A stretch of DNA of 64,000 nucleotides from Chiloscyllium plagiosum. Its lineage: Eukaryota. A model generated the notes under the pieces. It did not search any database, was not told the DNA's origin, and worked only from the letters and a program-made list of their open reading frames with translations. Made by a program: the position numbers and the translations under genes. The stretch lies in contig NC_057753.1 in NCBI RefSeq assembly GCF_004010195.1, positions 2,395,285 through 2,459,284 of the forward strand. Direction: 5' to 3'. Shown piece by piece: positions 2,167 through 43,370 of the stretch (positions within the stretch are counted from its first letter, which is position 1; the number at the start of each line of letters is the position of its first letter).

Positions 2167-3077
2167 CTAACTTGGTCGTTATTGTGATCCTTTCTCGAAG
2201 AACATGCGGTCTCTCTGGTTGTATCACTTATTACCTGGTATCAATGGCAGCGACAGATCTCCTGGTCATATTTTCTGCTGTCCTCTTAAACCGGATTGCT
2301 GGGATTTATTTTCCAACAACTTTCCTTTCCATCACCCCATTATGCAGTTTACGTTCTGCCTTGATTTATGCATCTATAGACTGTTCTGTCTGGTTAACAG
2401 TCACTTTTACCTTTGACCGATTTGTGGCCATTTCATGCGTGAAGCTGAAAATACGATACTGCACTGAAATGGTCGCTGCACGGGCTATAGGATTCGTGTC
2501 CACCCTGAGTTGCATAAAAAATGCCTTTTTATATTTTGTATATGAACCAATGTACATAATTAACAATATGCCGTGGTTCTGCAGCGCAAAGTTAATATTT
2601 TACACGTCACCTGCATGGGCTGCATATGACTGGATGCGATCCATTGTAACTCCCTGTCTCCCATTCATTTTGATTGTATTGCTCAATGCTCTGACCGTCA
2701 GACATGTTCTAGCAGCCAATAGAGCCCGCAAGAGAGTTCGGGTTCAGAGCAATGGACTGAACAAGAGAGACCTAGAGGTGGAGAAGCGGCGAAAGTCAAT
2801 TGCTTTACTTTTTTCCGTCTCGTGCAATTTCATCCTACTCTACTTATTATTCATGATAACAATCCTTTATGTTCGAATTGCCAACGTCACTTATTTCTCA
2901 GGTTCTGATTCCAATGAGTCAACATTCGTTCTTGAGGAATATGGGTTTATGCTTCAGCTTCTGAGCTCCTGCATCAATCCGTTTATTTATGCAGGAGTAC
3001 AGGCTAAATTCAGGACAGAATTCATAAATGGAGTGAAATATCCATTAAGATTATTGTGTAAGTCTTTCAAACTGTGA
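2167..3077 (+). CDS. GPR139-like class A GPCR, coding exon 2 (exon 1 presumably upstream of the window)
   Basis: Pyrimidine tract + TTACAG acceptor at 2161-2166; open frame with hydrophobic TM segments, LVSMAATDLL (TM2), TFDRFVAI (DRY variant) and NPFIY (NPxxY); close paralog of 40763-41673. Confidence 0.9.
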
Positions 3078-3119
3078 CAATCTGTTCACAGAGTCTGACA
3101 GCAAGGAAATATTCGATCC

Positions 3120-3480
3120 AATCATCCACTTCGTCAAGGTTACAAAACGAAAACCTTCTCATTTGTCTCCATTTGATCATACCACTCTAAACCTTTCCTA
3201 TTCATGTACTGATACATATGTCTTTTAAGTATGGCACTGCATCTACGTTTACCACTCCCATTGTCACTTCGTTCCACGTGTGTAACAACCCACTGTGTGA
3301 TAAATCTGACCTTCAGGTCGCTTTGAAATCTTGCCCTTTCACAATAAAAAAATAAGCCCTTCAGTTTTGAACACTCCGACCAGAGGGAAAAGAGCTTTGC
3401 TATTCACCTTATCCATGCCACTCGTGATTTTATGACCCTCTGCAAAGTCACGTCTCCACTTCAAGTGCTGCTGTAAAACA
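3120..3480 (-). mobile_element. Old CR1 3' fragment
   Basis: Antisense CR1 3'-end motifs (ctctaaacctttcctattcatg, ttcaccttatccatgcc); paralogous copy at ~12140-12330. Confidence 0.6.
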
Positions 3481-10659: not shown

Positions 10660-11378
10660 ATGAATTTATTCGACATTAGCTCCGTACTTGCAGCCCCTGA
10701 TTCAGGTTGTTTTCTGCTGATGGATGGTGTGAAAATCATAATATTTCTAAAAAGTGTGTTGTCGTGACTTTGATTTTCATGTGAGGTTGGTCGTGGTCAG
10801 AAAATCTCTGTGAAGCAGTCATGAACAAAAGCGAACAGGGTAGAAAGAAGCATTATAACTTTCAACTGCAAGTATAGCACAACTTTACATCTGCTAATTG
10901 CGGACCCAGTAATATTAGATTAGATTGCATTACAGTGTGGAAACAGGCCTTTCGGCCCAACAAGTCCACACTGACCCGCCGAAGCGAAACCCACCCATAC
11001 CCCTACATTTACCCCTTACCTAGCACTATGGCAATTTAGCATGGTAAATTCACCTGACCTGCACATCTTTGGACTGTGGGAGGAAGCCGGAGCACCCGGA
11101 GGAAACCCACGCAGACACGGGGAGAACGTGCAAACTCCACACAGTCCGTCGCCTGAGGCGGGAATTGAACCCGGCTCTCTGGCGCTATGAGGCAGCAGGG
11201 CTAACCACTGTGCCACCGTGCCGCCCACATCCAGAGCATCGAACCAGAGGTATCGAATTAAAGGTAGTTCTGCTCGGAATAATTTAACCCTTCGTGCCAG
11301 ATACTGCGAATGGCGCCTTCAGTTTAATAATCATCAAGCTGCGGCTGATGCAGTTCATTTTGACTGGGTGCTGAGTCT
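10660..11378 (+). pseudogene. TCR alpha/delta-type V pseudogene (leader + V exon) disrupted by a SINE
   Basis: Leader MNLFDISSVLAAPDS-G|GT (10660-10705); V exon GQKISVKQS*TKANRVERSIITFNCKYSTT...DTANGAFSLIIIKLRL; stop codon, deletion, decayed YYC and RSS. Confidence 0.65.
10916..11226 (-). mobile_element. HE1-like SINE inserted in a V pseudogene
   Basis: Reverse complement of the 8440 family; absent from paralog 17316-17857. Confidence 0.93.
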
Positions 11379-14300
11379 CATGGACAGGAACTACTCGGAC
11401 CCTGGTCAACTGACTCGTTTGGTTATTTGTTACTTGGTGTTAAACCTTAAATGCGACACTGCAGTGGGAGGAAGATAACTCGATATTGTGATTCGCTGTA
11501 TCTGACGATGGCAAACCATTGCTTGACTAGAAAGTGACACAGCTTTTCCCATTTTGGCACTAGCTGCCAGATGTTAGGTCTGACAACTATGTAAAAGAAA
11601 GCAAGTAATTGCGATCATTCTGAAGTTTCTTTGTCTTTCAGAAGAATGTTTTTAAGTCGTATTCCATCAAAACACAAACATCAGTCAGTTCGTAAACCTA
11701 TTTCCTTTCAGTATACATATAATAAGTCTGAAACCCTAAATCATTAATTAGCTCCCTCGAACCTTACATTAGGTAAAAGTTTTACCAGTTCTCAACAGAC
11801 TGCCAAAAATTTGCAAATCATCTAATAGAAATGCACAAAGAGCTCACATTGATGCTATTTAGTATCTGGTGACTGCAGCTGTCAGAGTTTCAGATAAATT
11901 ATTCCAGTAAGTTAATCACTGTGTGAAGGATGTGTTAGGTACATCGATTCTCCAATTTAATTTGTACCGATCTCCAGTGTTTTCTCTCTTTCACTGACTG
12001 AAGTCTTCAATGAATTACAGATGCACCCAGAGCTTCTGCAGATTTAGTTTGGGAAACTTGGTCGAAGTGCATAACTTGTAATGAAGAGAGTCTATTTCCT
12101 TGCCCAAGATTCTCTGAACATACGAAACTGCCCTCTGTATGATAAAGCTGCTCTTCGGGTCCCTTTAAAATCTTTGTTCTCTCGCAATACAAGTATGCCC
12201 TTCAGTTTTGCACTCCTCTACCAGAGGGAAAAGACCTTTGCTTTTCACCTTATCCATGTCCCTCATGATTTTATAAACCTTGACAAGGATTCCTCATAAC
12301 TTGCCGTACTCCAGTGACAAATGCCCACTCTCGGTATATGAAAATATTGCAGACTCATCACATATTTGACTTTTGCTTTCACGTGCATAAAGTGAAAAAA
12401 AATTCCGTCTTAACTTCGAGCTGTGAGGAAGATAAATAGGCATCTTGATAATGCAATATTTTTTGCAAACGTTCTAGAAACTAACCACTTACTTCAAATC
12501 TAGGCAATGTCATTTTATAATACGAATTTGGAAGGAAAATTAAGTTATTTATCAACACGTTAGGAAAACGTAGTTTGTGATATCCCGACGTTTATTTTTC
12601 TCCATGTCCAGATTTCATTTAGCCCCTGTTCCATAAAAATAGCTTTCTAAATTCGATCAGTGAATAATTTCAGTGATTGCATTTAACACTCTTAGCCGGG
12701 TAGTCACACATGCATTCTTATGGGTGTTCATGGCACCGATGATCACTGTGGAGTGATATCAAATAATGTAAGAAATGGTACTATACAAAATGACATCATT
12801 CTCCCCATTTTTCTGGCACTGACGCACCGAGTAGAGTTTATGACTTTGTGCTGTGTTCCTACTATTTCCCCATAAACTTGCCATTGATGTCCCTAAATAA
12901 TCATCCAACACCAACTCATTATCTTGAATGATCTTGCCTCGTCCACCATTCCAGAAAGTGCATTTCAGAACTTGACCACAGCTGCGTAAAATACATTGTT
13001 TTTTCGACAGCATTTGCTTCATTTGCAAGTTCTCGTTAATCTTTGTCCTCACGTTCTCTGTCTCTTCAGAAGGGGGAAGAGTGTTTTGCCTTTCTTTCCG
13101 CCTTGCACCTCACAGGATTTTGCAGTCATCTATTAGATCTCCTTTGAACCTTTTCCTGTCCAAGGGAAATTGACCCAATTTCTCGAAACTCACTTTTTTT
13201 AACTGAAACTCTTCATGCCCAGAAACATTTCCATAAATATCAGCAGAATTCTAACCAATTCATTCTTACCCTCCCTCGAATGTCCACAAATGTGCAAAAC
13301 ACTTCAGCTGAGGGTTAACTAATGCCTTGATTAAAGTGTAGCATTATCTCCATCCTCGTGCAGTCTGTGACTGAGTTAATAATGCCTAAGCTACTGAATG
13401 CTCTAATAATAAAATATTAATATCGAGCCACTTCTCACTCCATTGAATCCATGTAGAACATGTTTAAACATATCTTCTATAAGGAAATTGTGTGGTTCTG
13501 CTGACTTGCTACTTGCTGTGCCCGCTTCTCAATTATTCATTGCAATTGCACAGAAAAGAGCAATAGAATGAAAGGAGGGATGTAAATTCTTCTTCCTATC
13601 CATTATTGCAATCGAATTTTAATTCCGCAGTGAACAAGGTGGAAGTGAAGTGGAAGCAGTAAGTCTGGGGTGAATTGATGTCAATGATAATGAGTATCCA
13701 ACTGACAACTTGGCTTCTCCTCGATGCTTTTTTGATTTAAATGGTTGTTGGATCAATTGTCTGGTGCACGCCAGTGATCATTTCCCTCTTCATTGCAAGA
13801 AAGTAGAGCAGCAATTGAATATCCAGAATTTGTCAACACTTCTTAATTAAATCAAATTGAGCAAAATAAATGCTCACTATTTATTTTATTGCAATTTTAC
13901 AAATTTATCGTCTTCAAATGGACAATTACAGCATCACCCATCTTCAATGCATCACGCATGACACTAAGACCACGGTCAAAAACAAAACGAGTTGTCTCAG
14001 AGGGACCTTTAAAATTTGTGCTACCAAAATTTCCAATCTAAAAAGACTAAAGGTGAATATCTGAAAATACAATTCTATAATTTCCTCAACACTTTTCTCA
14101 TATTAGACTTGCCCTCAATTTTGTTGTATGATCTGAAACATCTTTTGCTTTTATCCTTCTTCCAAGTGCTTTAAAATATGTATGCCTTTGACGTTTTCAA
14201 TTTTGATTGTTAGTTGAAAATACTTGAATTGGACAAACCTGTCATAAAAGTTGCCATGTCGTACAAGCATTGACATCATCAATGTAGTTATTATGTAATG

Positions 14301-14469
14301 ATTATATCAGCACTGAATATTACTCCCACTGAATGGAATATGCTCTTTAAACCACGACGTTTACAAAATGTCTGTAGAGAGAGAATGACAGTTAACTCTT
14401 CAATGTTGCCTGCTTATCCTGGAATGGTAACTATCCTCAATCGATCTCACCCTTGCAAAATGATGTTGG

Positions 14470-14680
14470 GCATCCTTTTAAGGAAGGTCCAAATGTGGGG
14501 GTTTTAAAATGTACTTTTAAGCGTTGATGGATTGGATAGCGTCTAAGAAATTTCACATGACTGTGGGAGCGGATTTGTTCCATGGTGTGGTCAAACAGCT
14601 GATGGGCTGAAGAGGTCACAGCAGTATGGTAGTGAGAGAAAGACTCGTTGAATTCACGTCTGATGGAAGCAGAGCATTTC
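14470..14680 (-). mobile_element. Penelope-like N-terminal relic (paralog)
   Basis: ORF 14437-14769 segment QLFDHTMEQIRSHSHVKFL...HFKTPTFGP. Confidence 0.55.
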
Positions 14681-14784
14681 TTCCAATTGCCCAGTTTGAA
14701 GTTCTCTGCCTCCATCAAAGTAAAGCTCGGGTCATTTAGTGTGGAGACATGGGAACAGTTCAATCTCAATCACTGTAGACACAG

Positions 14785-15250
14785 AGAATCATAGATTCTT
14801 GGAACATTAAAACAGACACTTTAGTCCAATTTATCTGCGCCGACTAGACATCCCAATCTGACTCACTCTCACTTGCCAGAATTTGGCCCATAACGCTCTA
14901 AACCTTTCCTGTCTATACACCCATCCAGATGTCTTTTAAATGGTGTAACTATACCAGCCTCCACCTCTTCCCCTGGCAGCTCGTTGCATAAACGTACCGT
15001 CCTCTGTACCAAAAAGTTACCCCTCAGAGTTTAAAAAAAAATCTTTTCTCTTTGATCCCAAACTTATGCCCTGTAATTTTGGACTCCGCTGCCCTAGGAA
15101 AAAGAACTTAACTAATCACCAAATCTTTCCCGTCATGATTTTGTAAACTTTTATATGCTTGCCCCTCAGCTTCTGATTCTCCACGGGAAAAAGCCCAACC
15201 CTATTCAGCCTCTCCCTATATTCCATGTCCCCTGGTATCAGTACCATCCC
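14785..15250 (-). mobile_element. CR1 3' fragment
   Basis: Antisense CR1 3'-end sequence. Confidence 0.8.
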
Positions 15251-17315
15251 TCAACCAGAACATTGTCTTGTTTCTTCTCAACTATTCTGACAGTCTGAAA
15301 AAAGTGATGAGGTTTAAATTCCCACTGCACAGGAAGAATAATCGTTTAATGTCTCACATCAGAGCCAATCTTCCATCATCTTAAACAAGCCAACATTGTT
15401 TTGACGGCTTGTGGTCCATGGGGAAGTTTTCCTTCTCCATTTAGGTATTCACACTTTTGAAAGTTTCAAAACTTTGGAAATTGGGATTTCTATCTTTTGT
15501 TTCCTTCAAATTTCTGTGCTGATGACTGACAATCTTTTTAAAAATCCCATCACAATTATCAGTCTTGTAAGATGTCCAGGGATGCAGATTTGTGGGAAAT
15601 TCTGAGACTGTTATTTTTAGAGAAAAGAAAAACGAGATATTTTGTGGCACTGTTTATAAGGATTGAGGGTTTAGGAGAGGGGTATTGTTACATTAAGAGG
15701 GACAGGGTTTGATGAGGGTGAAATGGAAGGGTGACAGAGCAAACTTTCTCCATTGACAAGGGTCAGGAATCGGCGAAGTGGAATGGAAGATAATTTAAGG
15801 GAAATTAATCTGGAATCTTTATTTGTTTATAACGTCTCTATCAATTGTCACGAAAAGCTTCTAACTGGACCAGGGTGCAGTGGGGGCCGGGGGAGGCAGG
15901 ATGAGTACGTGTTTTTATAATACTTGAAAATCTCAGTCTCGATACATTGTATCACTTCTTAATCTTCCGGATATAAAGAAAATACCACAAAATTAGGGGA
16001 CCATGCATCTTTTACTGACTATATACATGGGTAAAAACTATCCAAATCCCCAGAGTTTCAAGTTCGTGCTAAATGTCAAGGGAATATTCCCTGAACGTGT
16101 TAAGTTTCATGAGGTCAAAGTTTTCAATGAGAAAAAAAACTTAATTGAGAACAGAATTAAATGAAGTGGTGAACATTTGCAATCACCAATAGTTGCACAG
16201 GCTGTAATGTCTTTAAACAATCCTCATTATCGCAGTCACTTATTTTCCTGTCACGTATCAGTTGAAGTAAGAAACTGTCATTAGAATCGGAATGCACCTG
16301 TCACGTTCTCACATACCCTGGACTGCAGCTGTCACTCAAATAGATACTCAAGTTTTTTTTTTCTCTCATGAAAAACCGATATGCAACTTAATGACCAGTT
16401 CCATCATTACGTTAACAAAGTTGCAGGTAGAGTCCCAGAGTGGACGAATGCAAACTGACTGAAATACCATTCTCACGAGCAGGTGCTAACTGTGAATTAA
16501 ACAGGCGTATTCAGAGAAGTAAAACTGTGTAACGCATGGCCATTGGTTATTACCTGTGAAATCCATACAGAGCACCAACTGCCTTGACACCTGGCATGGC
16601 TCTACAACAAGGCAAGCATGTCATAATCGGTGCAAAGGCATTCTACGAGATATCCATTTCCATTTCATTTATGTATTAAATTATGAAACGAAGTTCTGGA
16701 ATTTAATTGTTATTTAAATAAAAATAGGAAGGAATACTTTTGACTATTTTTCTTGATCATAGTAACTTTATAGTTACTGCGGGACAGAAATAAAAACATC
16801 AAAATTCGGTGCAGGAGTAGGTAATTCAGCCCCATCCAGCCTGTTTACCATTTAAGGAAAACATGGCTGATCTTATCTCAGCCTCCACTTTTCAACTGCA
16901 CTCCATAACACATTAATCATTACTAGTTAAACATGTATCTGTTGCCTTCTTAACTCAACTCAATGTCTTGACATACATTGCACTCTGCAGTAGTGAAGAT
17001 TCGCGATCCTATGAAATAAATAATTTCTCCTCAACTCAATTTTATATCTTCTAATCGTGTGATAAAGCTGTTATGAAATTTTAATTATTATTTGTTCCAA
17101 ATCAAATCGTTATCTATTCTTGTTCTTTCAAGGCGCTTTGTGCGATTAGAACATTTATTTTGCCACTGGGTGGAGGTTATTCCCTTTATTCCCCACTTCA
17201 GTGAGCATTATGGCATAGAAACGTGATATTAATAGGACACTGCCCCTCGAGACAAATAGTTTCAGCGAATATCTTGTGGCAATTTCTACTTCCCGTTTGT
17301 TTAATAACACTTGCA

Positions 17316-17857
17316 ATTAATTTATTCGGCATTACGGCCGTGCTTGCAGCACCTGATACAGGTCGCTTTCTGGCGATCGATTATGGGTCAAATGCGAAAA
17401 CCACCATTATCTGAAAAGTGTCGTGTATGTGACTTTGATTTTCATTTATTTTTGGTCATGGTCAGGAAACCTCTGTGAAGCAAGGATTAACAAAAGCGAT
17501 CAGGACAGAAAGGAGCAGTATAACTTTCAACTGCAACGATAAGACTGAAGCGACTGGGCTTGTATACCCTTGAGTTTCGAAGACTGAGAGGGGATCTGAT
17601 AGAGACATATAAGATTTCGAAGGGCTGAATCGCCTACTCCTGCACCTATTGTTTATTGTCTATTGTCGATATCACCATTTCCCTTCTACTCATTGTTGAC
17701 GCAGTAATATCCGAGCATCGAACCAGTGGCATTGAAATAAGGGTAGTTCTAGTCAGAGTGATTTATCCCTTAGTGCTGTATACTTCGAATGCCGTTTTCA
17801 GTTTGGTAATCCTCAAGTTGCGACTGAGGCAGTTCATTTTAACTGCTTGCTGACTCT
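17316..17857 (+). pseudogene. TCR alpha/delta-type V pseudogene (paralog of 10660)
   Basis: Leader with ATG>ATT; GQETSVKQGLTKAIRTERSSITFNC...LLLIVDAVISEHRTSGIEIR...TSNAVFSLVILKLRL; small LINE fragment at ~17570-17660. Confidence 0.65.
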
Positions 17858-21118: not shown

Positions 21119-21168
21119 ATGGAAATCAGAACAGTTCTTTCAGTTGCAATGGTTTATGCCTCACTTCG
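21119..21168 (+). other. Candidate leader exon for the V at 21865
   Basis: MEIRTVLSVAMVYASL is signal-peptide-like and followed by GT, but that donor is phase 2 while the V exon needs phase 1. Confidence 0.45.
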
Positions 21169-21864: not shown

Positions 21865-22138
21865 GTGAAGAGACTGTTTTACAGTCATTTCCATCTCAGA
21901 CTCCGAGTGAATGGAAGACCGTATCGATACACTGTCACACAGCCATTTCATTCTTTGCGATATACTGGTTCATGCAAACTCCGAGTCAGAGTCTGAAGAT
22001 ATTGGTAATGGTGACCGGAAGCGAGACAGCAAGTAATGGTAGATTTCGAGCCGTCAGTCGAAGCGAAGAGAAAAGCAGCTCTCTGATTATATCAAGCTGG
22101 CGTCTAACAGACACTGGAACCTACTTTTGTGCCTTGCA
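21865..22138 (+). CDS. T-cell receptor alpha/delta-type V gene segment, V exon (open frame)
   Basis: TACAG acceptor; (G)EETVLQS...TVSIHC...IYWFMQTPSQSLK...SNGRF...SSSLIISS..LTDTGTYFCAL with conserved Cys-Trp-Cys, ending at an RSS. Confidence 0.9.
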
Positions 22139-22177
22139 CACAGTGTGGAAAGAAGTGACAGTGTCCGCACAAAAACC
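22139..22177 (+). promoter_or_regulatory. Recombination signal sequence, 23-bp spacer
   Basis: CACAGTG (22139-22145) + 23 nt + ACAAAAACC (22169-22177): consensus heptamer and nonamer. Confidence 0.97.
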
Positions 22178-29050: not shown

Positions 29051-29704
29051 AGTCACTTGATTGAACTTAATAAAAGCAAACGGGGCTGGCCAATAATTCA
29101 CCACCCTAAACAAAATCGATCAAGCAGACTTTGTGTATTTTAATTAAAAGTGAATGCAGTGTCAAAGTCAGATTAATACTCAATTTCATGATTGCAAGCC
29201 TGCATTTATATTCTTGGCAGTGTTTCATTTCATTCTAGAAATATCTTTTGAAGGGATAATGACAAGTGCAATTCACATCAAGAATAATAGCACGGCAGAA
29301 CCACGTTCAACTTACGAAAACCTATTAAATTAAACATCAAAATGTTAACTTTCAAGGTAGGATAGTTCAATGTAAAACATGACTAAACTGTAAATAATAT
29401 GAAGAATCCATAATGTTTGTAAAATGGTAATTGTAAATGGGAAAACGATAAAATTAACACTGCGCAATGATGTCAGGGAATGTAACAAATCATACCTTAA
29501 AACTCATAAATAGTCAGAAGTCAGAGTACGTTTGCAATGCAAAACAGGAGAAAAATGGTTACATTGAACATGCTGTAGTAGTAAAGAGAAAACATATATT
29601 GGAGAAATTATGTCTGGAACGTGAAGAAGCATTTCTAGTAAAATGGGGGCAATTGCTTCATCTGATGAAACAGATTAGTTCCGATCTTACTGCAATACTT
29701 TATT

Positions 29705-29773
29705 TTGAATTCCAATGGCTGCAAGGACAGGATCGAAAATGGTAAACACCATACTTTTGAGTATTGCATGCAT
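29705..29773 (-). pseudogene. Orphan exon 1 of a third GPR139-like gene
   Basis: Reads MHAILKSMVFTIFDPVLAAIGIQ versus MHGIPKGLLFSIYYPILAVTGIP at 39089; flanks are also homologous; donor G|GT mutated to A|AT; no exon 2 seen. Confidence 0.75.
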
Positions 29774-30049
29774 TACTGCCAGAAGGTCTTTGCCCATTTT
29801 GCACCAGTGGGCTCCAGATAAATTGCTAGCTGGCTTGATAGTCTGGTTTACTTAGATTTGCGCAAAGAAACAGGTTAGTGCAGAGGATGCTGTACTGTTG
29901 TATATGACTCGGTAGAATCGACTGATTCATGGTATTGACTGGGGTCTAGCAGAATTCTATGATCCCAGTTGCATTTCTTCATTAGAACTTGAACTGCCTG
30001 GGTATTGACCTCAGGTGTAACAATAGTTTTAATTGAGAATACGAAGAGT

Positions 30050-31050: not shown

Positions 31051-31899
31051 GGAGTCATTAATTTATAATCAGCTGAGAACTGAAGAATCCTGTTCAGTTA
31101 GTGATAAACAGAAAGCAAGCAACCAATAAACAACAAACATAACATTGCTTCAGGACACGTTGGTCATGATGCCCGTCCAATAATTTATTCAAATAAACTC
31201 AATTAGGGTTCATGCGATATTTCAATGGTCTCAAATAATGTATCACTTACGAAAATTCTCCCTTTCCTTTTTTTTAACCAATGGCAAAACAAGTCCAAAT
31301 TTGCACGATGATTATTCACTAGCAACAGCACTGGCAACAACTCAACAGAACATCATTGGCACTGTGATGGGTGTGTCAGAATGAAAGGGCAAAAGCTGGA
31401 CCAAAACCCTGTTGAATGTCTTTGTAATTACAAATACTTTGTGGCGTTTTACGCATGTATAGTTTTTATGTATTCTTTCTTCCTTTCGTTCTTTCTTTGT
31501 AGTCGTTAACTCAATGGTATTGCACTTAAATCATGATTAACAACTAATAAAAAACTGCATTTACATGAATTCAACTGTTGTCATGGTACCTGCCTCAGGA
31601 AGCTAATATCGCCTTTGAGGGGATGATTCGTAGAGGTAATATGATAAAGCTGCATGATCAGAAGCTGTACTAATTATGTTAACTTGGATAAAATAACACA
31701 AAGATTATTCAATATCTATTCAGCAAATGCCAAGTAAACATAAAACGGTGAATGAATATTGCTGAGGAAGAAAGTATATCAGCAAAAGTTGGGAATCTAT
31801 CTTCCTAGCAAAGAACATCCCACCCAGAACGTTCCTGCTTCCACCACCGGACTCACACTATCCATGAAATTTTGCATTTTATGTGGCAAATCTGTATAG

Positions 31900-32075
31900 A
31901 CTGCACTGCCTTGGACACGATGGGAAATTTAGTATAGTCAACCGGTGTAATTGGCCCATCCTAGTCCTATGGTTGAAAACCGGACCTCCCAAATCCACGC
32001 AAACGCAGGGAGAATGTATGAAACTTCACATGCAGAATTGCTTCAGGCTGTGAGGCAGCAGTGATAACCACTGAA
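31900..32075 (-). mobile_element. Old SINE fragment
   Basis: acgcagggagaatgt...ctgtgaggcagcagtgataaccactg, antisense SINE head. Confidence 0.55.
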
Positions 32076-34589
32076 CTGCAAAATGTACAGTGCAAATTCG
32101 AAGATTGTATCTGTTCATTGGGATAGGGATATCACTAAGGTAGAGATTGATTATTGTAAATTTGGAGAATTGTTATACCTGATTTGCACAGTAACTAACT
32201 GCAAAAAAGAACTGGAACGTTGATAACTGCAAGCACCAGATACTAAATGCAAAGAGGACAACTGCTAGCTGTTTGCATTTCTGTTCGACAGGAGTTGTAT
32301 CACTTTCTAGTCAATTACATTGTCAGACGCAATGAATCATATTTTGCAGACAGTGCCATCACCATTCCGAGGTGTATTACATTCCATTAGAAGACAGAGA
32401 AGCTAACATAGTAGGAAAGAGTCGGCATTGTGTTCCCGGAGAAATCCAGCCTCCATAATTTTTATATTATCAAAAGTATTTTCTTCATTGCCATTCCCTG
32501 TTATCAGTATTCTTTTCAGAGCCACAACAGAGTATTAAACTTCTTTGGATTTTTTTTGTGTATTGTAAATTGCAGAAAATAATGTAAATGGTTAAGTGAT
32601 ATGCGTGGGTTTCTTCAATCTTGCGCAATTTATTAACACTCATTTTTTTCTCTCAAAATTTATCTCTTATTTGATGACTTGAAACTGCTAGCAAGTTACT
32701 GCTAGACGTATCTCGTTTTGTACCGAGGACAAGAGTTTTAACTCACTATATGTGATACAATATGCAGAGCAAAAGAACATTTTTGCTACTGATGCCCAAA
32801 ATGCAGCCATTGGCAAAAACTCTTGGAATAAAGACACCAATAAAGAATCCATTGAATTTGCCATGCTCCACAGGAATTCATCATTATAGTGAGGTGTCTG
32901 CTGTTATGCACAAGAATGCACGCGGGAATGGCACCAAGACCAGTCGTGTGTGTGTTTTGATGATCAGAGTAATTAAAGCTGAGTGCATTAAACAACAACC
33001 ACCCCCCCCCTCCCCCCTCCCCCGATTTGCCACTGGAATTCTGTGCAGACAATAGTTGGGGCAGTGGAAATTTTCATTCCTTAAAATGCATGACTAAAAT
33101 TGATGCCTTCACGACCACTTTCTGTGGCTCAGTCATGGGAATTTCCGCAGACCAGACAACAATCAATTTAATGTCAGTGAAGTCAATTTCACACTATGGT
33201 GAAATTGCAACTCGCATTTGCCATCTCCACATCATAACAATTAGGTTTGGCTTACGTTTCATGCTGATTTCGAATTGCTCAGACGGTCTTTGACAGCAAC
33301 ACATTGAAGTGGCTTCGGGTAATGCCAAAGGAAAGATATGTCAGGAGCAATATATTTCCTTCCCAAAAAAGTAAGTCATTCTGGGGTTTCAATGAATGTT
33401 CCCACATTATGACTCTGGATTGTAATGCTATTAGCAGACTGTGACCACATCCTCTAACATGAAATACTAGCATGCAAGTTCAGCAAACGAAGCAAAAAGT
33501 ATTGTTATTTTTGCTGTTCTTAATCACAGTCCTGGAGCAATGTCACTTAGGGTGGAGGAGGTGGGGTGGGATTACTGCCAACTGGCGTTATTACTGGACT
33601 GTTAATCCAAACAGCAAGTACTTTCTCGAGACCTGAGATTTAATCAAAGCAGCTGATGGAATTTCAAAACAACAACAACAACAAAAAAGTCGGAGCTAAA
33701 TGTGGAATGATGAAATATATTGTTGATTGTTGGGAAAGAAAACCGTCAGTTTCACAAATATCTCGTAGGGAAGGTAACTGCAATTTTAGCTAATCTCGTC
33801 CACATGTGACTCCAGAATGACAGCAATGCAGTTGATGCTTAACTGGCCTGTGTGCAATTCTGGATGGATAATAAATGGTGGCCCAGCACGGATTCATCTA
33901 CAACCCAGGAACGATTTTTTGAAAGAAGTCATTGCCTGCTCAGGAGAATCGGGAATGTTACATAAATATGTTAAATTGTCAGACTCTCATATCCACGGTC
34001 ATTGTCCGAATGGAAGCTTGAACCTACTGTTTCACTTTCAGTCAGGAACAGATCTAAGCTTAGCATCAATCTCAGATTTGGCATCATATTTCCAGCATTC
34101 CCCATGTTAGTTCACGTCTCTAATCCCAACTGTCAAGAAGCTTGTGTTCCTTGTTGTTGTAAAGGCCTATGGTTAAAGCTGACAATATGGCTGGCTGGAG
34201 CTTTTTAGTTGACAGAAAATGCTGAAAGAGGTTTACATAGTTATCTATGGCAGATGTTCACAGCCAGACTGGTGACATACACACAGGGTCACCGGATAAG
34301 AGAATAGAAGAGAAAAGGCAGAAGTGCTCAGTCAGGCATTCTTCATAAGAGAGGCATAGATGAAAACCATTTCAGCAAACTAATGTAAAAGTTCAAATTG
34401 ATACAGAGTAGAAAGTAAAGTGAATTCCCTTAATTAAAGCATGTTCAGGAATTTGGAAATTACATAAATGAGTGCACACAAACCTGTATATTTGTAAAAC
34501 ATAGTAATAGTTTTCTTTCAATTGATAGATATTTTGCACTGAATTACACAAGCTTTTCTGAGAGAAAGCATCTCTGAAATGCCAAGATA

Positions 34590-34890
34590 AAGAGTGATTG
34601 ACTCTGCTGCCTCTAAGTGCCAGGGACATGGGTTCCATTCAAGCTTTGAGTGACCGTCTGTGTGGCGTTTGTTACTTTCCCCTGGTGTCTGTGTAAATGT
34701 CATCGATTTCTTCCCACCGTCCAAGAATGTGCAGCTTAGGTGACCATGCTGAGTTGCCCATGGTAACTAGGGATGTGTCACTTAAGTGAATTAGCCATTG
34801 AAAATGCAGAATTGCATGAATAGGGGAGGGAGTTGAGTCTGGTTGGGTCAGTGTGCGCTCAATGGGACAAATGGGCTGCTTCCATACTGT
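34590..34890 (+). mobile_element. Old tRNA-derived SINE
   Basis: ctgctgcctc...gggttccattc B-box, SINE core, ccatgctgagttgccc. Confidence 0.7.
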
Positions 34891-35859
34891 GTTTATGAAG
34901 CGACGTACAGGAACAAACACCCTGAAGTTTGCAGTTTAATAATACCCCAAGTAGATATATGAATGTACAGTAATTTAGATTCATTGATAACTGTCATTAA
35001 CATTAAAACAATTCCGAAATGCAACTCACAGGCATTCAGGCAGAAATTCAGTTGACGTTTTCGAAGCAGTCAACTGCAGACAGTAAGAAAAAAAAAGGCC
35101 ACTTCACGGGGAAAATGGAGCACAAATGGTGTAAACAGAGCATCACTAAGAGAGCAGAAAAGTTTGTAAACATGGTAAATAAACAACTGTAGCTCAATTA
35201 CAGATCCTTGCATTCAAAGAGTGAGCGAATTTCACCCTCACCGATGGATAGAGAGAGTTAGGTTTATAAAGAATTACCTTCCTGTTTTAAACCCAATTTG
35301 AAGCATGAAAACTGCAGGTTCATAAACTGCAATTGCAAAACAGAGAGACATCGATCTTCCAGGTTCGAGAGCGACATAAAATGTTGTCTGTTTGATCGCC
35401 TTATTAAAAAAACTATAACATGAAATGTAAGTATATAACTTTGAGGTTACAAATTTTATTAAAATGTGTAGATATTCTCATCCTGTTATGTTGTTTATAC
35501 TAAAGTGATGAGGGAATTTGGAAGATTTCATCGTAGTAAGTGGATATCCAATTTATTAGTAATGAACAAGAGGTAGCTGGTAATTGCCTGGGAAGGAGTA
35601 TAACTGTCACATGCATTGTAAGATCCCACGGAAGTGATTGAGGTGTTTGGTCAATATCATGAGATTATGGGAGGACCTTGGGCTGTCCATGGAGCTGTGA
35701 ATCATTGATCACGCGTTTACAGATTTGGATGCATAGATTAGGGGTGTGTGGCAAAGAATGGCATCGATGTTGCATGCGATTATTTGAAAGGAAATGTTTA
35801 AAAAGGCTATCCATTTGAATCCTACACAATGCCAGTGAAACTACAGACTAGGCAAACCA

Positions 35860-38700
35860 GAGTGTCCCAGAGAGGGTCCTCTCCAATGCTACATGATAAA
35901 GAGCTCGAATTATTCCACGAAAGACGAATATTTCCCTTCAACAATGTCCAAACTGTCAGTTGACTTGGCATCAAACTCCTGTCACTAATGATCTGTGTAC
36001 CATTTATGATGTCTCCATTCCCCAACTATTTCACATGGGTCTGGTTCCACCTCAAAGTGGGAATTCTGTTATCCCAAACAGAGTACATGTCGTCCTCATT
36101 ACCGTCTCACCACGAAAAAGGGCGAGATGCTAAGTCTGAAACCATCTTCACAGTTGAACTGTAGCGCCTGTCATTCTAGGATGCACAGTTCCCTGTTGCT
36201 ATTCCATGTTACTTCATTCCCTTCATACACCACCACTTTCCTTTGGTTTCCCGTTGCAGGAATACAATCACATTACCCATTAGCCCAGATCCTCCAAACT
36301 TTAACTCTCTAGTAATCTTCTTGTCATTGCACTTTGCCCCCTTTTAAAGAGACTTGTTTCCTGCTCTTATTTACAATTTGTTATGGTTTATTTTTCCTTA
36401 ATGAGTATATTGCTTTCAAACCCGTTTTCTGCACATCTACAGCAATTCATGCACATTGAGTGCCACTTCCAGTTTCATCCCTTTCTTTAACGCCATGTTG
36501 GTTGTGGGGTTAACTGCATAATTAACCATCCCCCAGATGCATCTTTCTTTCTTTTTTCCTTTTTGTTTTATCTATTGATTTTGCGAAGGCATTCCATTTC
36601 CTGAGGTTTTGATGGGGTGGGATATCTAAAAGGGTAACTGCCGCATCATCTGAGGCGAGTGCTGCTGTATCCATGGTCAATCCAACCCAAAGTCCATCAA
36701 TTCTGGAACATTATGAATTACTCGCATTAGGTGTTTATGATGGTAATTGTCGTGTTTTCATCAAGAGCCTTCAACTACTCACCTTGGTATCACTCACTCT
36801 GGTTTGGCTCTGTCAGCACTTTGTATACTAAGGAGCTTACCTTACCTAGCACCTCATACGGTCCTGCAAATCTAGGGTCTAGGAAAGGTATCGTTACATT
36901 TTGCCCATTCTGCAGTTTCACTGGCATTGTGTAGGAGACAAAATATGCGAGATTTTCTGCATATTCATATCCATGGTATTTCCAGCTTCATAATTCGCGC
37001 TTTTTTATTCTCAATTAGCTGTTGTATCCACTTGTCTTTGAATTATCCGCCTACTTCCGTTGGTGCCGTGCTTGTGCTCACAGTGGATGCAGGCGACGCA
37101 TCTCTCTGCCTGTCAGTAACCACGAGAGTCTACATCTTGTAGAGGAGGCCACAGAAATTCCTATTATCATCAAGACATGAGGGATAATCATCAGTCAATC
37201 GTTCTGACATTGCTGTACCATATTGGCTGGCAGGTTCTTCAAGGTTCTATTCATTCTCTCCATTATTCATTTTGATTGTGATCCAAGGTACATGACTCCT
37301 TTGTTTAATCCCTTCCAGCGTTACTGCATTCTGCATCGAGTTGTAAAGTGCCTCTTCCTTGACCTGATATTATACTCGTCAATAAACATCAATTATTACA
37401 AATCTTTGCCAACGTACTTTCCATCCAGCTTTGTGGCATTAGATATAGAGTCATAAAATCATACAAATGTACAGCATGGAAATAGACCCTTCGGTCCAAT
37501 CCGTCCATGCCGACCGGATATCGCAACCCAATCTAGTCCCACCTGCCAGCACCCGGCCCATATCCCTCCAAACCCTTCCTATTTATATACCCATCCAAAT
37601 GCATTTTAAATGTTGCAATTGTACCAGCCTCCACCACTTCCTCTGGCAGCTCATTCCATACACTTACCATCCTCTGTGTGATAACGTTGCCCCTTAGGAC
37701 TCTTTTATAGCTTTCCCCACTCACCTAAACCTATGCCCTTTAGTTCTGGACTCCCTGACCCCAGGGAAAAGACTTTGTCTATTTATCCTATCCACATCCC
37801 TCATGCTTTTGTTAATCTCTATAAGGTTACCCCTCAACCTCCGACGGTCCAGGGAAAACAGCCTCAGTCTGTTCAGTCTCTCCTTATAGGTCAAATCCTC
37901 CAAACCTGGCAACATCCTTATAAATCTTTTCTGAACCCTTTCAAGTTTCACAACATCTTTCCAATAGGAAGGAGACCAGAATTGCACGCAATATTCCAAC
38001 AGTGGCCGAATCAATGCCCTGTCCAGCCGTAACATGACCTCCAGACTCCTGTACGTTCGAGTTGGAAACGTTTCTATCTGTTTGGTGAAGAAACTTATTA
38101 TGAACAGGATATGTTTATATCGTCCCCGATAATGGGTAGAGGAAACACAATATCAGGGACCTTCCACTGGCCTTGTGTGCCTAAGAACTCCCTTCTTCTC
38201 ATTTCTCTTCGTCAGTTTTGGGCAGATATTGGATATTTTTAATGTAATGTTCGCTATGTACTTTTGTTGGCTGCCATGACCATATCTCTTTTGGCCTCTC
38301 CATAGTGGTCACCCACCGGTGATATCCATATTTAAAATGGTAACAATAAATCATCCGATGCCTGTCTGCCTCGCGTGCTGCAAAATTAACTTCACAAAAT
38401 ACCACACCCTCCTCTGAATGGCTGTCATTTGTGCCTTAATTTCCTCTGATGCCTTGCCTTCCAATACATTTTGAAACTCTTCATCCTTTCCTTGTTCTCC
38501 TGCCAAATCAATTGGGCCCCATCTTTCTTTTCCAGCGCTTCTTTTCCTTCAATTTGTAGCAGTCATTCTTCTTCAGTCGTTGCTTCTTTTTGGGTTAATT
38601 CATCTACCTAGTTATTTCTCTCTGGTGATAATTATAATTAGCCTTTACATTCATTATTCCATACTATCTTCCATTCACCTTTTCAAATATTTATTGCTGT
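35860..38700 (-). mobile_element. Endogenous retrovirus relic (integrase and 3' region), inverted copy
   Basis: Minus-strand GIKQRSHVPW...MERMNRTLK; homologous to 47750-49960. Confidence 0.75.
37447..38053 (-). mobile_element. CR1 3' fragment inserted in the ERV
   Basis: ORFs 37533-38035 (RPLLEYCVQFWSP, WNELPEEVVEA). Confidence 0.92.
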
Positions 38701-39088
38701 ACGTGGGCGAACAGTAGCGCATTTCTGTCAACATGTACATATACTCTCACATCCGGAAAATACAGTATTTTTGAATGTATTGTGTCATGGATATCAAGTT
38801 TTATCCAACTACTCATAGAGTGCCTATTATGCGTTTGAGAAGATGGAGACATTAATGATTATGTAATCTCTTATTTGCTCACTTTAGTGCCATGTTAAAC
38901 CATCTGAAAACAAAAAAAATAAATCTGTGCCACCCAGCAAAATCTGGCAGGCAGCAGATGCACTCATTTTATTCTCAAACTAAGTTTTAAAGAATCAACC
39001 ATCTAATTAGCCCCCTGGGGCCTGGCATTAACTTTTATTACCACCAATCTTCAGTGAATTGCAGAATGCGCTCAGAGCTTCAGCAGAA

Positions 39089-41673
39089 ATGCATGGAATA
39101 CCGAAGGGTCTTCTGTTTTCAATTTACTATCCTATCCTTGCAGTTACCGGGATTCCAGGTTAAGTATTTGACTTAGTAACTCAGCCAATCATCACTGAAC
39201 TGCATTTTTTGTACCATTCAATCAACAATGCATCTCCCTTTCCCTCTCACGATGCATATTAACTTTCGTCAAGGTAGGTTTTCTTTGCTCTACTTGTCTA
39301 ATCTCTTCCCGGATACAAAATCACGACAACGCTACTAATTCGTCTTCAGATGACACAATCGACAAAATGGTAACATAACTTCTCAGTAGTAGTGGCTTAA
39401 TTTTCTTCTTGAATATTATTATGTAACCACTTGTCAGTGTACATCTCTTACAAATCTGTTATAGTTACACGTCTTTTGAGTTTTGCTATTTGCTGACAGT
39501 TACATATTTTCTTCATTTACCAATAACAACCCATCACGTAGATAAACTTGGGCTCTTTTTTCACACCGCTTTCGTATGTAGCTTTCTTCTTGTTATTACA
39601 GTACGAATATAATCCTGTTCTCGCCATTGGTCTCGTCCGAATCTTTGATCGGTTTTCAAGGTATAACTAGCATCCCATTATATTATTGATGAGCTTATTG
39701 TATGTGGTTTATCTTGGTGTTGTCAGTTTAAAAATATTGTTTTCTTCCGTGGCTCACATAATTCAAGTGTCAATTAACAAACTCTTCTTAGCGTGTGACA
39801 TCCAATTGTCAGTGCATTGTGTGCCTAATATCACAAGTTTCTCACAGTGTCAACGAAGTGTTACGGCGTTATTCAATGTGTACATAAGTGATGATACTGC
39901 AAATTATCAGTTGAGAGCGATTTTGGAATATTGAAGTATTTTTGCTGATTTTGATGCAGTAGTTTCCTGAACAGGCACAGTGCAGCATCGCTATGGTTTC
40001 AGTTGTACAAGACAGCAAGATTTTGGATTATCTCTGTGAAATTGTAACTGTCTATAGATGACAGAGCATGCTGCTTTGTTCTCGTTCTCCCAAACTCATT
40101 GTTTGATTCCAATTCTCTCGCATGTTGCGCTGTTGATGGCACTACTCTGTCAACTGTTGAGAGTCGGATTTTCTCCTGCTGACAACATCTGATAATGTGT
40201 TATATTCTTTCCACCTTCAGCAATTTTTCCAAGTTGAGTGTGAAACTGTATCTGGTAGCACCTCTGAAATGGAAAGTGAAATACTTTTATTTCAAATATC
40301 CACTGCAGGATAAGGTTAATCAATAGTTACATGTAGGAGGGTATTGCTTCGACTCAGAACTCCGATGGTTGAACAGAAGATTCATTTTACTGCACACGGA
40401 AAGGCTCCAAGTTTTCAGTGCCCGTGATTGGCAATTAACATTTTTATTTGCTCGCACTGTCGGCTAAAATGTCCATTGCATGCTTATTTACCTCTGTTTA
40501 AGAATAACTCTGAGCAAATTGGCTTACATGTTCCCGAACACTGATGACGTATTCTACACACATTGGAATGAATCGTATGCATTCAGGGAGAGATATCATA
40601 TTGGTTAGTTTTAGTTTCCCAGTCTATTATTATGCACCTTTTTATTTAGTATTGTTTCCATTTTCTTCATTCCTACTGTATTGCCTTGCTATGTTTATGA
40701 ACCCATGCGGTTTTCGTTTTGAGCTCAACGAAGTCTCTAACTGCCTCCCTTGTTTATTACAGCTAACCTGGTCGTGATTGTGATCCTGTCTCGAAGAACA
40801 TGTGGCCTCTCTTGCTGTATCACCTATTACCTGGTATCAATGGCAGTGGCAGATCTTCTGGTCATATTTACTGCTGTCCTCTTAAACCGAATAGCTGGTA
40901 TTTATTTTCCATTAAGTTTTCTTTCCATCACTCCATTGTGCAGTTTACGTTCTGCCTTGATTTATGCATCTATAGACAGTTCTGCCTGGTTAACAGTCAC
41001 TTTTACGTTTGACCGATTTGTGGCCATTTCATGCCAGAAGCTGAAAATACGGTATTGCACTGAGATGGTGGCTGCATGGGTTATAGGAATCGTGTGCACG
41101 TTGAGTTGTATAAAAAATGCCTTCTTTTATTTTGTATATGACCCTATATACGTAATTAAAAATATGCCATGGTTCTGTCGTGTGAAAGTTATATTTTACA
41201 CGTCACCTGCCTGGGCTGCATTTGACTGGATGCGATCCATTCTAACCCCCTGTCTCCCATTCATTCTGATTGTACTGCTCAATGCTCTGACGGTCAGACA
41301 TGTTCTAGCAGCTAATAAAGCCCGCAGGAGAGTTCGGGCTCAGAACAATGGAGAGAACCAGAATGACCCAGAAGTTGAGAAACGGAAAAAGTCCATTGTT
41401 TTACTTTTTGCCATTTCGTGCAATTTCATCCTACTCTATTTACTATTCATGATAACGATTCTCTATGTCCGAATTGCCAATGTTACTTATTTCTCAGGTT
41501 CTGATTCTGGTGAACCAACATTCAGTCTTGAGGAATATGGATTTATGCTTCAGCTTCTGAGTTCTTGCATCAATCCCTTTATTTATGCTGGAGTGCAGGC
41601 TAAATTCAGAGCAGAATTAATGAATGGGGTGAAGTATCCATTGAGGTTATTACGTAAGTCACTCAACCTATGA
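39089..41673 (+). CDS. GPR139-like class A GPCR, two exons (39089-39158, 40763-41673)
   Basis: Exon 1 MHGIPKGLLFSIYYPILAVTGIP-G|GT (phase 1) joins TACAG|CT-AAC to give ...GIPANLVVIVIL (complete TM1); TFDRFVAI, NPFIY; stop ends at 41673. Confidence 0.92.
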
Positions 41674-41689
41674 CAGCAGGAAAATTCTG

Positions 41690-43370
41690 CACCAGTAGTT
41701 TATGATAACACGTTTCCTCTAAATGCCCAAATTTCAAATAGCCCTTCTTCCAAAAAATATTTTTCTTAGTTTTCAAACTCTCTTGGCTGCGTGATCACAG
41801 GTGCATTCTTAAGAGTGTTCATGGCGTTTACGTTCACTGCAGAGTGATATCAAGTGGGCGTTGTGACGTAGTACCATTTTCCTACCATTTACCAGTATCC
41901 TTGCTATTACTCTATTTGAATAAATATGTTATGGCAGTCCTATTGCCTTGATTGAGCTTGCCTGCTCCAGTATTCCAGAAAGTGCATTCGAGAACTTGAC
42001 CACCAGCTGTGTGATAAGGCATATATTCTTCTCCAGCATTTGATTCATTTGCAAGTTCTATTTAATCTGTGTCCTCCCATTTTGTATTTTTTTCATATCT
42101 GGGTTCAGTGTATCTCTATCTTTCTCTCTAAACCTCATGTGATTTTGCAACCACTTATGATACCTCTTTTGAATCTTGTCCTTTCCGAGGGAAATTGTCC
42201 CAATTTCTCACATCTCACTTTTTAAGTGAAGCTCTGAATCCTTGCACACATTTTCATAAATGTCTGCGGAAGTCTCTCCAAAGCACTCTAAAATTGTACA
42301 AAATACGTCAGTTGAGACTGAACTAATGTGTTGGTAAATTGCAACATTATCTCCTTTCTCTTCTTTCTGTGACCAAGTTAATAACTCCAAATGAGATATG
42401 CAGTATCAATAAAATATGAATATCAAATTATTCTGACGTCAGTGGAACATGAAGAAAATGTTTAAAACCATATTTCGTGATACAGTCGCGTGTTTCGTCT
42501 CTCTTGCTACATGCTATTCCTGTTTCTCAGTCATTCAGTGAGATTTCACAGAAATTTATAATAGAACGAAAGAGCAGTGTAAATTCTTGTCCCTTTACAT
42601 TATTGCAATAGATTTTTAATTCCGCGGTGACCAGAGTGGGAGTAAGGTGGAAATAGGGTGTCTGATCACTATCGTCTGATTGACAATGTGGATCTGCTAG
42701 ATGTTTTTTGGATGTGCATGGTAGTTCAATCGATCGTTTGGTGAACACCCGTTGTCATTTCGCCCTTTTGTGGAAGTAAGTAGAGCAGCAAATGATCATT
42801 CCGTAGATTCTTCAGCATTCCTTTCTCAATGAACAGCAGATTGTCAAAATAAATTCTCAACATTTACTTCAATGTAATTTTAGAAACTTGTCGTGTTCAA
42901 GTTGATAACTACTGCCTCACCCAACTTCCACTGCTCATCCTTACTCGTCTTAGCATGGACAAAATTATAATGAATCGCTTCAAAGGGACCTTTAAACTGT
43001 GTACTATTTAAATTTCCTCAATGAATAGAACTGAATATTCAGGTGAATACCTGAAATAAAATTCCATAATTTCACATATTTGCACTTTTAACTTTTTCAG
43101 TCTTGATTGCCAGCCCTGCATTTGAAAATACTTGAATTAGAATACAGTATGGCATTATAACCAGAATTGGGCATCACCAATACAACCATCCTAAAATAAC
43201 GCTATCAGCACTGAAACTAACCTCCAATGAATGGAATATATCGAAAAATGCTGAAAATACAAGGAAGATCAGAAAACGTCTTTTCAGAACGAATAACAGT
43301 TAACCCTTCAATGTTACTTGCTACTCCTGGAACGTTTACTGTCCTCGATCAGTCATACTCTTTGGAAGTA
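41690..43370 (+). repeat. Partial third copy of the post-GPCR duplication unit
   Basis: Collinear with ~3740-5590 and ~12580-14450. Confidence 0.8.

What the first reader, a model, noticed from the sequence alone, without database searches (positions are those of the whole stretch)
2167..43370. GPR139-like GPCR genes and TCR V segments appear to be co-duplicated as one cassette
Seen: the sequence downstream of GPCR 1 (from ~3300) runs collinearly into a V pseudogene (10660). That block is repeated (12140-18040, second V pseudogene) and begins again behind GPCR 2 (41690-43370). A third GPCR exon 1 lies inverted at 29705. Inference: the unit of birth-and-death here is GPCR + V, so a lineage-expanded orphan-receptor family sits inside an antigen-receptor locus. 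It could be exposed to lymphocyte-specific chromatin opening, or to clonal deletion/inversion by V(D)J recombination. This loosely parallels olfactory receptor genes next to mammalian TRA/TRD. Both GPCR frames remain open while neighbouring Vs decay.
Basis: partly seen in the sequence, partly recalled or inferred. Interest (0 to 1): 0.75.

Follow-up and report, generated by a model that had tools for sequence, protein, structure and literature searches.

The report
Shark receptor genes among TCR segments
In this shark DNA, genes of a very large orphan-receptor family sit between T-cell-receptor-type V segments, but the old duplications here each copied a different mix of pieces, so the two are likely neighbours shuffled together rather than one repeating receptor-plus-V unit.

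Summary
The repeats are real; the fixed cassette is not supported. The window is shark DNA with six loci of a large 'probable GPR139' family (two open coding exons, four 5' remnants) and three V loci (two decayed, one with a perfect 23-RSS). Block A (3284-11487) was copied once as block B (12126-17971, distance about 0.3). B starts inside a CR1 relic 207 nt past GPCR1's stop codon and holds no GPCR coding exon. The exon-1 remnant just before B resembles a different dead paralogue. GPCR2 shares only about 1.7 kb of 3' flank, mostly an old LINE relic (distance 0.39), and no V follows it. A third, inverted duplication carried GPCR 5' remnants without any V. The GPCR exons show purifying selection (dN/dS 0.22). 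The decayed Vs have no RSS, and the RSS-bearing V's best leader splices out of frame. Linkage to TCR J/C and lymphoid expression could not be tested. Best reading: a GPCR array interleaved with scattered TCR alpha/delta-type Vs, like olfactory genes around mammalian TRAV1. The scan has noted the GPCR family many times on other DNA of this genome; I found no note or paper on the interleaving.

The parts
1757..2166 (+). 3' part of GPCR1 intron, homologous to GPCR2 intron 40412-40762; exon 1 of GPCR1 is not in the window
   Evidence: (64% identity)
2167..3077 (+). GPCR1 exon 2, open; class A 7TM of the shark 'probable GPR139' family
   Evidence: 87% to whale shark P0002
3284..11487 (+). Block A: CR1 relic (3086-3478), old LINE-like relic (about 3986-5214), unique flank, V pseudogene 1; younger SINE and LTR-like insertions
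10660..11400 (+). Probable V pseudogene 1: leader 10660-10705, V exon from 10786, SINE inserted 10915-11228, stop and frameshifts, no RSS
11488..11919 (+). Promoter region and exon-1 remnant (ATG 11831) of a dead GPCR paralogue; closer to the 32285 remnant than to GPCR2 and sharing an in-frame TAG with it
   Evidence: (E 1.4e-6)
12126..17971 (+). Block B: tandem copy of block A, starting inside the CR1 relic, without a GPCR coding exon
17316..17880 (+). Probable V pseudogene 2: leader without ATG (17316-17361), V exon broken by a short insertion, no RSS
21119..22177 (+). TCR alpha/delta-type V of another family: leader 21119-21168, open V exon 21865-22138 with Cys, Trp and Cys, perfect 23-RSS 22139-22177; best leader donor (phase 2) does not match the acceptor (phase 1)
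29578..29804 (-). GPCR exon-1 remnant (ATG 29773) with lost donor; no exon 2 found
   Evidence: E 1e-12
32179..32285 (-). GPCR exon-1 remnant with in-frame TAG
   Evidence: (E 2e-5)
31051..38793 (+). Left arm of an old inverted duplication; holds a GPCR 5' remnant, no V
   Evidence: K 0.34-0.44
39004..39020 (+). Homeodomain-like site next to an O/E-like site, 69 nt before GPCR2's ATG; weak on its own
   Evidence: only match in the window; 15 of 100 shuffles have one or more
39089..41673 (+). GPCR2, complete two-exon gene, 326 aa
41669..43375 (+). Block C: GPCR2 3' flank homologous to the start of A and B, mostly an old CR1-like relic; not followed by V-ward sequence
47662..63874 (-). Right arm of the inverted duplication, broken by younger CR1, LTR-type and L1-type insertions; GPCR promoter remnant at 63256-63383

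Best explanation
A tandem array of a very large shark orphan-GPCR family is interleaved here with scattered TCR alpha/delta-type V segments, and old duplications with different breakpoints likely copied whatever lay between them, so the V travelled as a passenger rather than as half of a fixed cassette. Inferred order of events. (1) An old duplication (distance about 0.36-0.39) gave GPCR1 and GPCR2 with their shared 3' flank; how far that copy first reached is unknown. (2) At a similar depth an inverted duplication copied 31-39 kb to 48-64 kb with GPCR 5' remnants and no V. (3) Later (distance about 0.3) a tandem duplication, probably by unequal exchange at a CR1 relic, copied GPCR1's 3' flank and one V but no receptor coding exon. 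The open GPCR exons were kept by purifying selection (shown); the Vs and several GPCR copies decayed (shown). The receptors most likely work as members of a sensor-type repertoire regulated independently of T cells (inferred, weak). The region is probably an outer part of the shark antigen-receptor chromosome (inferred, not shown).
For: Block B begins at 12126, matching 3284 inside a CR1 relic, 207 nt after GPCR1's stop. An exon-2 profile finds only GPCR1 and GPCR2. The four V-ward profiles (AB2-AB5) each hit two full copies, none beyond 17971; the unique stretches after 43375 align to A and B no better than shuffles (7 of 8 comparisons below the null maximum, 1 just above). Over 1592 three-way columns A-B is 75.9% identical, A-C 69.6% and B-C 70.1%, so there were two events of different age. 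GPCR1-GPCR2 dS 0.36 (0.27-0.47) matches the flank distance 0.39; dN/dS 0.22 (0.14-0.34). The exon-1 remnant before B scores 114 against the 32285 remnant and 63.5 against GPCR2, and shares an in-frame TAG with the former. Its 600-nt region scores 139 against GPCR2, where equal-length B-C pieces score 422-510. The family is large and dispersed: 1328 relatives; among the 120 listed, 17 whale shark proteins lie on 5 contigs, 8 zebra shark proteins on 7, horn shark proteins on 5. In DNA run X1, summed contig depth is about 11-12 on the flank and up to 17,691 inside exon 2 (not a copy number). Shark TCR alpha/delta-type Vs are described as scattered between IgH clusters, in both orientations over about 9 Mb in the white shark (PMC12227049 section 6 and Table S1).
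Against: An exon-1 remnant on the + strand does sit directly before block B, and the A-B homology ends (11487) where that remnant's upstream region begins (11491). That is the layout expected if a whole GPCR+V unit was duplicated and then lost its intron and exon 2. GPCR1's own exon 1 is outside the window, so the remnant could not be compared with it, and the GPCR1-GPCR2 intron is itself only 64% identical. The copy behind GPCR2 may once have reached a V and been cut later. Only 64 kb were seen. Linkage to TCR J/C rests on an unchecked scan note (NAR-TCR V 10.4 Mb away on the same piece) and on a contig-length match in catshark.
Confidence: 0.7

Rival explanations
1. One reading: GPCR+V is a repeated cassette. 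Block B was a full GPCR+V copy that lost its intron and exon 2, and the GPCR2 copy lost its V.
For: Order exon 2 - flank - V - promoter/exon 1 - flank - V, with the junction at 11487/11491. The flank behind GPCR2 is the same as behind GPCR1.
Against: It needs two separate later deletions. The exon-1 remnant is closer to another dead paralogue than to the GPCR1/GPCR2 type. The inverted duplication moved GPCR pieces without V. The RSS-bearing V has no detectable DNA similarity to the pseudogenes and no GPCR coding exon beside it. The family lies on many contigs per species.
Confidence: 0.15
2. The Vs are orphons in a GPCR array that is not usefully linked to any TCR D/J/C, so none of them rearranges.
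For: No J, D or C was seen in the window; there is one strong RSS only. Two Vs are decayed, and the third has an out-of-phase leader. The nearest TCR element in the scan's notes is 10.4 Mb away (unchecked). This rival is largely compatible with the best explanation and differs only on linkage.
Against: The V exon is open with a perfect RSS (0 perfect RSS in 50 shuffles) and has 53-61% relatives in other cartilaginous-fish or unnamed records. Shark TCR alpha/delta Vs are known to spread over megabases of the antigen-receptor chromosome.
Confidence: 0.1
3. The interleaving is functional: the GPCRs are lymphocyte receptors that share the locus's chromatin opening, or lose copies clonally when a distal V rearranges.
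For: Physical interleaving; purifying selection; a + strand V with a perfect 23-RSS lies upstream of GPCR2, so a join to a downstream D/J would delete or invert GPCR2 (geometry from the sequence).
Against: No expression evidence. The Vs next to GPCR1 lack an RSS. GPCR2's upstream region carries a homeodomain plus O/E-like pair recalled from olfactory promoters, though weakly. Relatives lie on many other contigs.
Confidence: 0.05

Closest known systems
Olfactory receptor genes interspersed with TRAV1 at the 5' end of mammalian TRA/TRD (PMC2275272, passage seen)
   Same: A class A GPCR multigene array with TCR alpha-type V segments in between.
   Different: These receptors are not olfactory receptors by any hit here (7tm_1 only; best solved relative GPR139). 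At least two V families are involved and most are dead. Position relative to TRAC/TRDC is unknown.
Trypsinogen genes intermixed in the TRB locus (PMC2275272, passage seen)
   Same: Unrelated passenger genes inside or beside a TCR locus.
   Different: Different gene family and different locus.
Elasmobranch antigen receptor complex, AgRC (PMC12227049: abstract, sections 6 and 15, Table S1 seen)
   Same: TCR alpha/delta-type V exons scattered in both orientations over megabases between other genes.
   Different: The main text has 0 occurrences of 'GPR' or 'G protein', and Table S1 lists only Ig/TCR and marker genes (psmb5, VSIG1). That this window belongs to the AgRC is inferred, not shown.
GPR139 (human; PDB 7vug, 9m42)
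   Same: Best solved relative of P0001, E 1.1e-9; short N-terminus; databases name the shark proteins 'probable GPR139'.
   Different: The similarity is weak and close to that of PrRP receptor and GPR119 (E about 1e-7); GPCR2 itself had no PDB hit at 1e-10. The shark family is multi-copy, while GPR139 is single-copy and highly conserved (abstracts; copy number recalled).

Membership tests
   Block B has no exon 2; block C has no V; the inverted arms have no V
   The exon-1 remnant before B groups with the 32285 remnant rather than GPCR2; GPCR1's exon 1 is missing and there are too few units for a tree
   No genome held
Functional TCR alpha/delta V segment (21119-22177) | V-set domain with Cys, Trp, Cys in an open frame | tested here: met
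   Pfam V-set E 8e-10; alignment A1
Functional TCR alpha/delta V segment (21119-22177) | 3' RSS with 23-nt spacer | tested here: met
   Perfect heptamer and nonamer at 22139; 0 perfect in 50 shuffles
Functional TCR alpha/delta V segment (21119-22177) | Leader exon splicing in frame | tested here: not met
   Best nearby leader ends in phase 2, acceptor needs phase 1, and a stop follows. Two phase-1 candidates about 2 kb upstream and weak phase-2 acceptors exist; an assembly indel is not excluded
Functional TCR alpha/delta V segment (21119-22177) | Alpha/delta type rather than beta, gamma or Ig | tested here: inconclusive
   The one functionally named hit among 10 looked up is a TCR alpha V; atlas and PDB lists mix TRAV, TRBV, TRGV and antibody V; no chain with a C region was found
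Functional TCR alpha/delta V segment (21119-22177) | Rearranges to TRA/TRD D, J and C | not testable with these tools
   No RNA read or contig on the V exon in 3 RNA-type runs, which is no test
V pseudogenes (10660, 17316) | Leader-intron-V anatomy with V-domain similarity | tested here: inconclusive
   Anatomy fits; HMM support modest; no Pfam or PDB V match; best RSS-like match has 6-7 mismatches
Class A (rhodopsin) GPCR | 7tm_1 domain with DRY-like and NPxxY motifs | tested here: met
   Pfam 7tm_1 E 2e-19 and 5e-19; DRF and NPFIY in both translations
GPR139 orthologue | High identity to mammalian GPR139 and single copy | tested here: not met
   E 1.1e-9 only; 1328 relatives, many per species
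GPR139 orthologue | Activation by L-Trp/L-Phe, habenular expression | not testable with these tools
   No assay and no expression data
Shark 'probable GPR139' multigene family | Nested among database members with the same two-exon layout | tested here: met
   Clade of both window genes with P0001, P0002, P0121 at SH-aLRT 100 (quick tree, 54 of 124 fetched relatives); same exon-1 peptide type
Elasmobranch AgRC | Same chromosome as TRAC/TRDC, IgH clusters and PSMB5 | not testable with these tools
   Indirect only: 3 of 3 catshark hits lie on a 133,841,611-nt contig and catshark AgRC genes run to 133,540,320 on chr17; a scan note puts a NAR-TCR cassette on the same piece (unchecked)

The most novel reading that the evidence does not exclude
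The shark antigen-receptor chromosome carries a multi-megabase array of an undescribed sensor-type GPCR family with RSS-bearing TCR V segments embedded in it, so each T cell that uses a distal V would delete or invert part of the array and carry a somatically altered GPCR repertoire; sharks and mammals would have paired a chemoreceptor-type array with the TCR alpha/delta V region independently.
Probability: 0.07. Interest if true: 0.75.

Novelty: new member of a known kind. Interest (0 to 1): 0.3.

Why it matters
As it stands it adds a detail to the map of the shark antigen-receptor region: its scattered V segments are probably embedded in an orphan-GPCR array, echoing olfactory genes around mammalian TRAV1 with another receptor family. 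It also warns that shared flanks in a birth-and-death array need not mark a functional cassette. If distal Vs were shown to rearrange across the array, or the GPCRs were lymphocyte-expressed, it would tie a large unstudied receptor family to V(D)J recombination.

Tried and rejected
Whole-genome dot-plot and distance to TRAC/TRDC: no genome held.

Expression: no RNA holder listed for GPCR2. Single-cell runs X5 and X6 (one sample; about 2% and 6% of each run read) gave 0 reads on GPCR2 and 0 on the V exon; one X5 read lay on an intronic repeat. X7 gave only short pieces of paralogues and repeats. This is no test and counts neither for nor against expression.

Finding a rearranged chain with this V: near-length search found no candidate; the longer-length search found 8 non-shark Ig-domain proteins; P0275 (269 aa) runs on past the V like germline read-through and shows no recognisable C region.

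V identity of the pseudogenes by library search: Pfam 0 of 3 fragments, PDB 0 hits and 3 chance ubiquitin hits. C-terminal fragments with stops were scored only in scripts, where the C halves alone were not clearly above chance (14 and 17 bits against a shuffle mean of 12 for the longer piece).

Gene conversion between the GPCR exons: rejected as a main factor, since dS matches flank distance; one 30-codon stretch has only 1 synonymous change.

Block C as an unrelated LINE insertion: its core does resemble CR1 (scores 143-188 against null maxima 106-111), but it starts at the GPCR2 stop, is collinear with pieces on both sides of the core and has the same age as the exons, so common descent is preferred.

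Cryptic 12-RSS at GPCR1's stop (3076, -): 4 matches in all against a null mean of 1.9, maximum 5; treated as chance.

Chromosome length of bamboo shark chr44, to place P0121: not in the supplements searched, one of which was cut when stored. The catshark paper's supplement could not be read and may bear on chr17 length and on GPCR expression.

The careful tree did not finish; the quick tree was used.

Literature: nine searches listed no paper that, by title or abstract start, treats GPR139-like genes in shark TCR loci. Term look-ups for GPR/GPR139 found 0 occurrences in PMC12227049, PMC10751288 and PMC11979771, and for G protein/GPCR 0 in PMC7677710. Subscription papers on the nurse shark TCR alpha/delta locus are not in the library.


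Full report
Source and limits. The window is shark DNA: the best database relatives of its GPCRs are from Hemiscyllium (88%), Rhincodon (86%) and Chiloscyllium. No genome is held for it, so everything structural rests on these 64 kb.

The GPCR genes. Two class A exons are open: GPCR1 exon 2 (2167-3077) and GPCR2 (exon 1 39089-39158, exon 2 40763-41673, 326 aa). GPCR1's exon 1 is not in the window. The exons are 85% identical in protein, with dS 0.36 (bootstrap 0.27-0.47), dN 0.079 and dN/dS 0.22 (0.14-0.34), so they are under purifying selection. They belong to a large family that databases call 'probable GPR139': 1328 relatives, spread over several contigs per species among the 120 listed. 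Similarity to human GPR139 is weak (E 1.1e-9 for P0001; none at 1e-10 for GPCR2). In a quick tree of 54 of the 124 fetched relatives, the two genes form a clade with P0001, P0002 and P0121 (SH-aLRT 100). GPCR1 joins the whale shark gene (89) and GPCR2 the bamboo and epaulette shark genes (88), which hints at an old split but is not firm. Four more loci survive only as 5' remnants: exon 1 at 29773 (-), 32285-32179 (-) and 11831 (+), and a promoter piece at 63256-63383. The reversed-window control gave no hits for these profiles.

The V segments. One V (21119-22177) has an open V-set exon and a perfect 23-RSS; 50 shuffles gave no perfect RSS. Its closest single-domain relatives are a Scyliorhinus torazame protein (61%) and unnamed Logan proteins (53%). 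An alpha/delta assignment is likely but not proven. Its best leader ends in phase 2 while the acceptor needs phase 1, which puts a stop at the junction, so it may be non-productive. Their scores are modest and within the whole-window null in a frameshift-aware scan. They have no RSS (6-7 mismatches at best) and no detectable DNA similarity to the RSS-bearing V.

The duplications. Self-alignment shows three events. First, GPCR1 and GPCR2 share the 3' end of the intron, exon 2 and about 1.7 kb of flank (A-C 69.6%, K 0.39, matching dS). That flank is largely an old CR1-like relic. It ends at 43375 and nothing V-ward follows. Second, 31051-38793 is repeated inverted at 63874-47662 in six collinear pieces (K 0.34-0.44); it carries GPCR 5' remnants and no V. 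Third, block A (3284-11487) was copied as block B (12126-17971) more recently (K 0.24-0.32). B starts inside a CR1 relic 207 nt after GPCR1's stop and has no exon-2 trace.

Is B a GPCR+V cassette that lost its middle? The exon-1 remnant at 11831 lies just before B, and its upstream region starts at 11491, where the A-B homology ends. Against it, the remnant is closer to the 32285 remnant (score 114) than to GPCR2 (63.5) and shares an in-frame TAG with it. Its region scores 139 against GPCR2's, where equal-length B-C pieces score 422-510. So it probably comes from a different, already dead paralogue. The caveat is that GPCR1's own exon 1 is unseen and the GPCR1-GPCR2 intron is only 64% identical (score 238 over about 355 nt). 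The simplest history is unequal exchange at CR1 relics copying flank plus V without a receptor. No duplication seen has both a GPCR coding exon and a V in both copies.

Wider context. Flajnik et al. 2025 (PMC12227049; abstract, term passages, sections 6 and 15 and Table S1 seen) describe TCR alpha/delta-type V exons scattered between IgH clusters, from 8.2 to 17.1 Mb on white shark chr27 in both orientations, and do not mention GPCRs in the main text. All 3 catshark GPCR hits lie on a contig of 133,841,611 nt, and catshark AgRC genes run to 133,540,320 on chr17. That these are one sequence is my inference from length. Unchecked scan notes place further GPCR clusters 0.9, 3.7, 4.2, 4.6 and 6.0 Mb beyond this window and a NAR-TCR cassette 10.4 Mb beyond, on the same piece; the few lines shown for the GPCR notes mention no V segments. 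In mammals, TRAV1 segments are interspersed with olfactory receptor genes and trypsinogens lie within TRB (PMC2275272, passages seen). For PMC7677710 I saw term passages and a supplement search, for PMC10751288 a term count, and for PMC11979771 three passages; its supplement was unreadable.

Function. Expression could not be tested. DNA run X1 shows depth of about 11-12 on the flank and thousands inside exon 2, in line with a very large family but not a copy number. A homeodomain-like site beside an O/E-like site lies 69 nt before GPCR2's ATG; it is the only such pair in the window, but 15 of 100 shuffles have one. The motif definitions are recalled and the lead came from scan note e1-8026807. 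It leans weakly towards sensory regulation. Only the 22139 RSS could expose GPCR2 to V(D)J deletion or inversion, and only if a D/J partner lies downstream and this V is used.

Verdict. Observation partly confirmed; interpretation partly supported. The interleaving of this GPCR family with TCR-type Vs is real and I did not find it in print in nine searches. The cassette model is the less likely history (about 0.15 against 0.7). It is a new member of a known kind of arrangement. Interest 0.3; novel case probability 0.07, interest 0.75 if true.

Noticed in passing
window 21119-22177: V with a perfect 23-RSS whose best leader splices out of phase; DNA run X1 holds contigs with 3-10 differences over parts of it, suggesting close paralogues or alleles elsewhere.
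   Followed up: partly
window 31051-38793 and 47662-63874: Old inverted duplication whose arms flank GPCR2, so the complete gene sits in the spacer of a decayed palindrome.
   Followed up: partly
window 39004-39020: Homeodomain-like plus O/E-like site pair before GPCR2; the TAATTAG part is also kept before the 11831 remnant.
   Followed up: partly
window 43941-46957: Young retroelement on the - strand with 93% identical inverted terminal copies (43941-44213 / 46677-46957), two N gaps and a SINE insertion; looks Penelope-like (label recalled, Pfam gave no informative hit).
   Followed up: no
window 57800-62430: Decayed L1/Tx1-like LINE with ORF1-like and RT pieces (RVT_1 E 8e-6), next to a decayed LTR-type pol region at about 55370-57800.
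   Followed up: no
window 1184-1755 and 9636-10215: Two inverted copies (74%) of an LTR-like repeat, one in GPCR1's intron and one inserted in block A only.
   Followed up: no
window 8439-8751, 10915-11228, 45199-45515, 59434-59738: Young SINE family, 90-93% identical copies; one interrupts V pseudogene 1.
   Followed up: no
window 3076 (-): Weak 12-RSS look-alike overlapping GPCR1's stop codon; within chance.
   Followed up: yes
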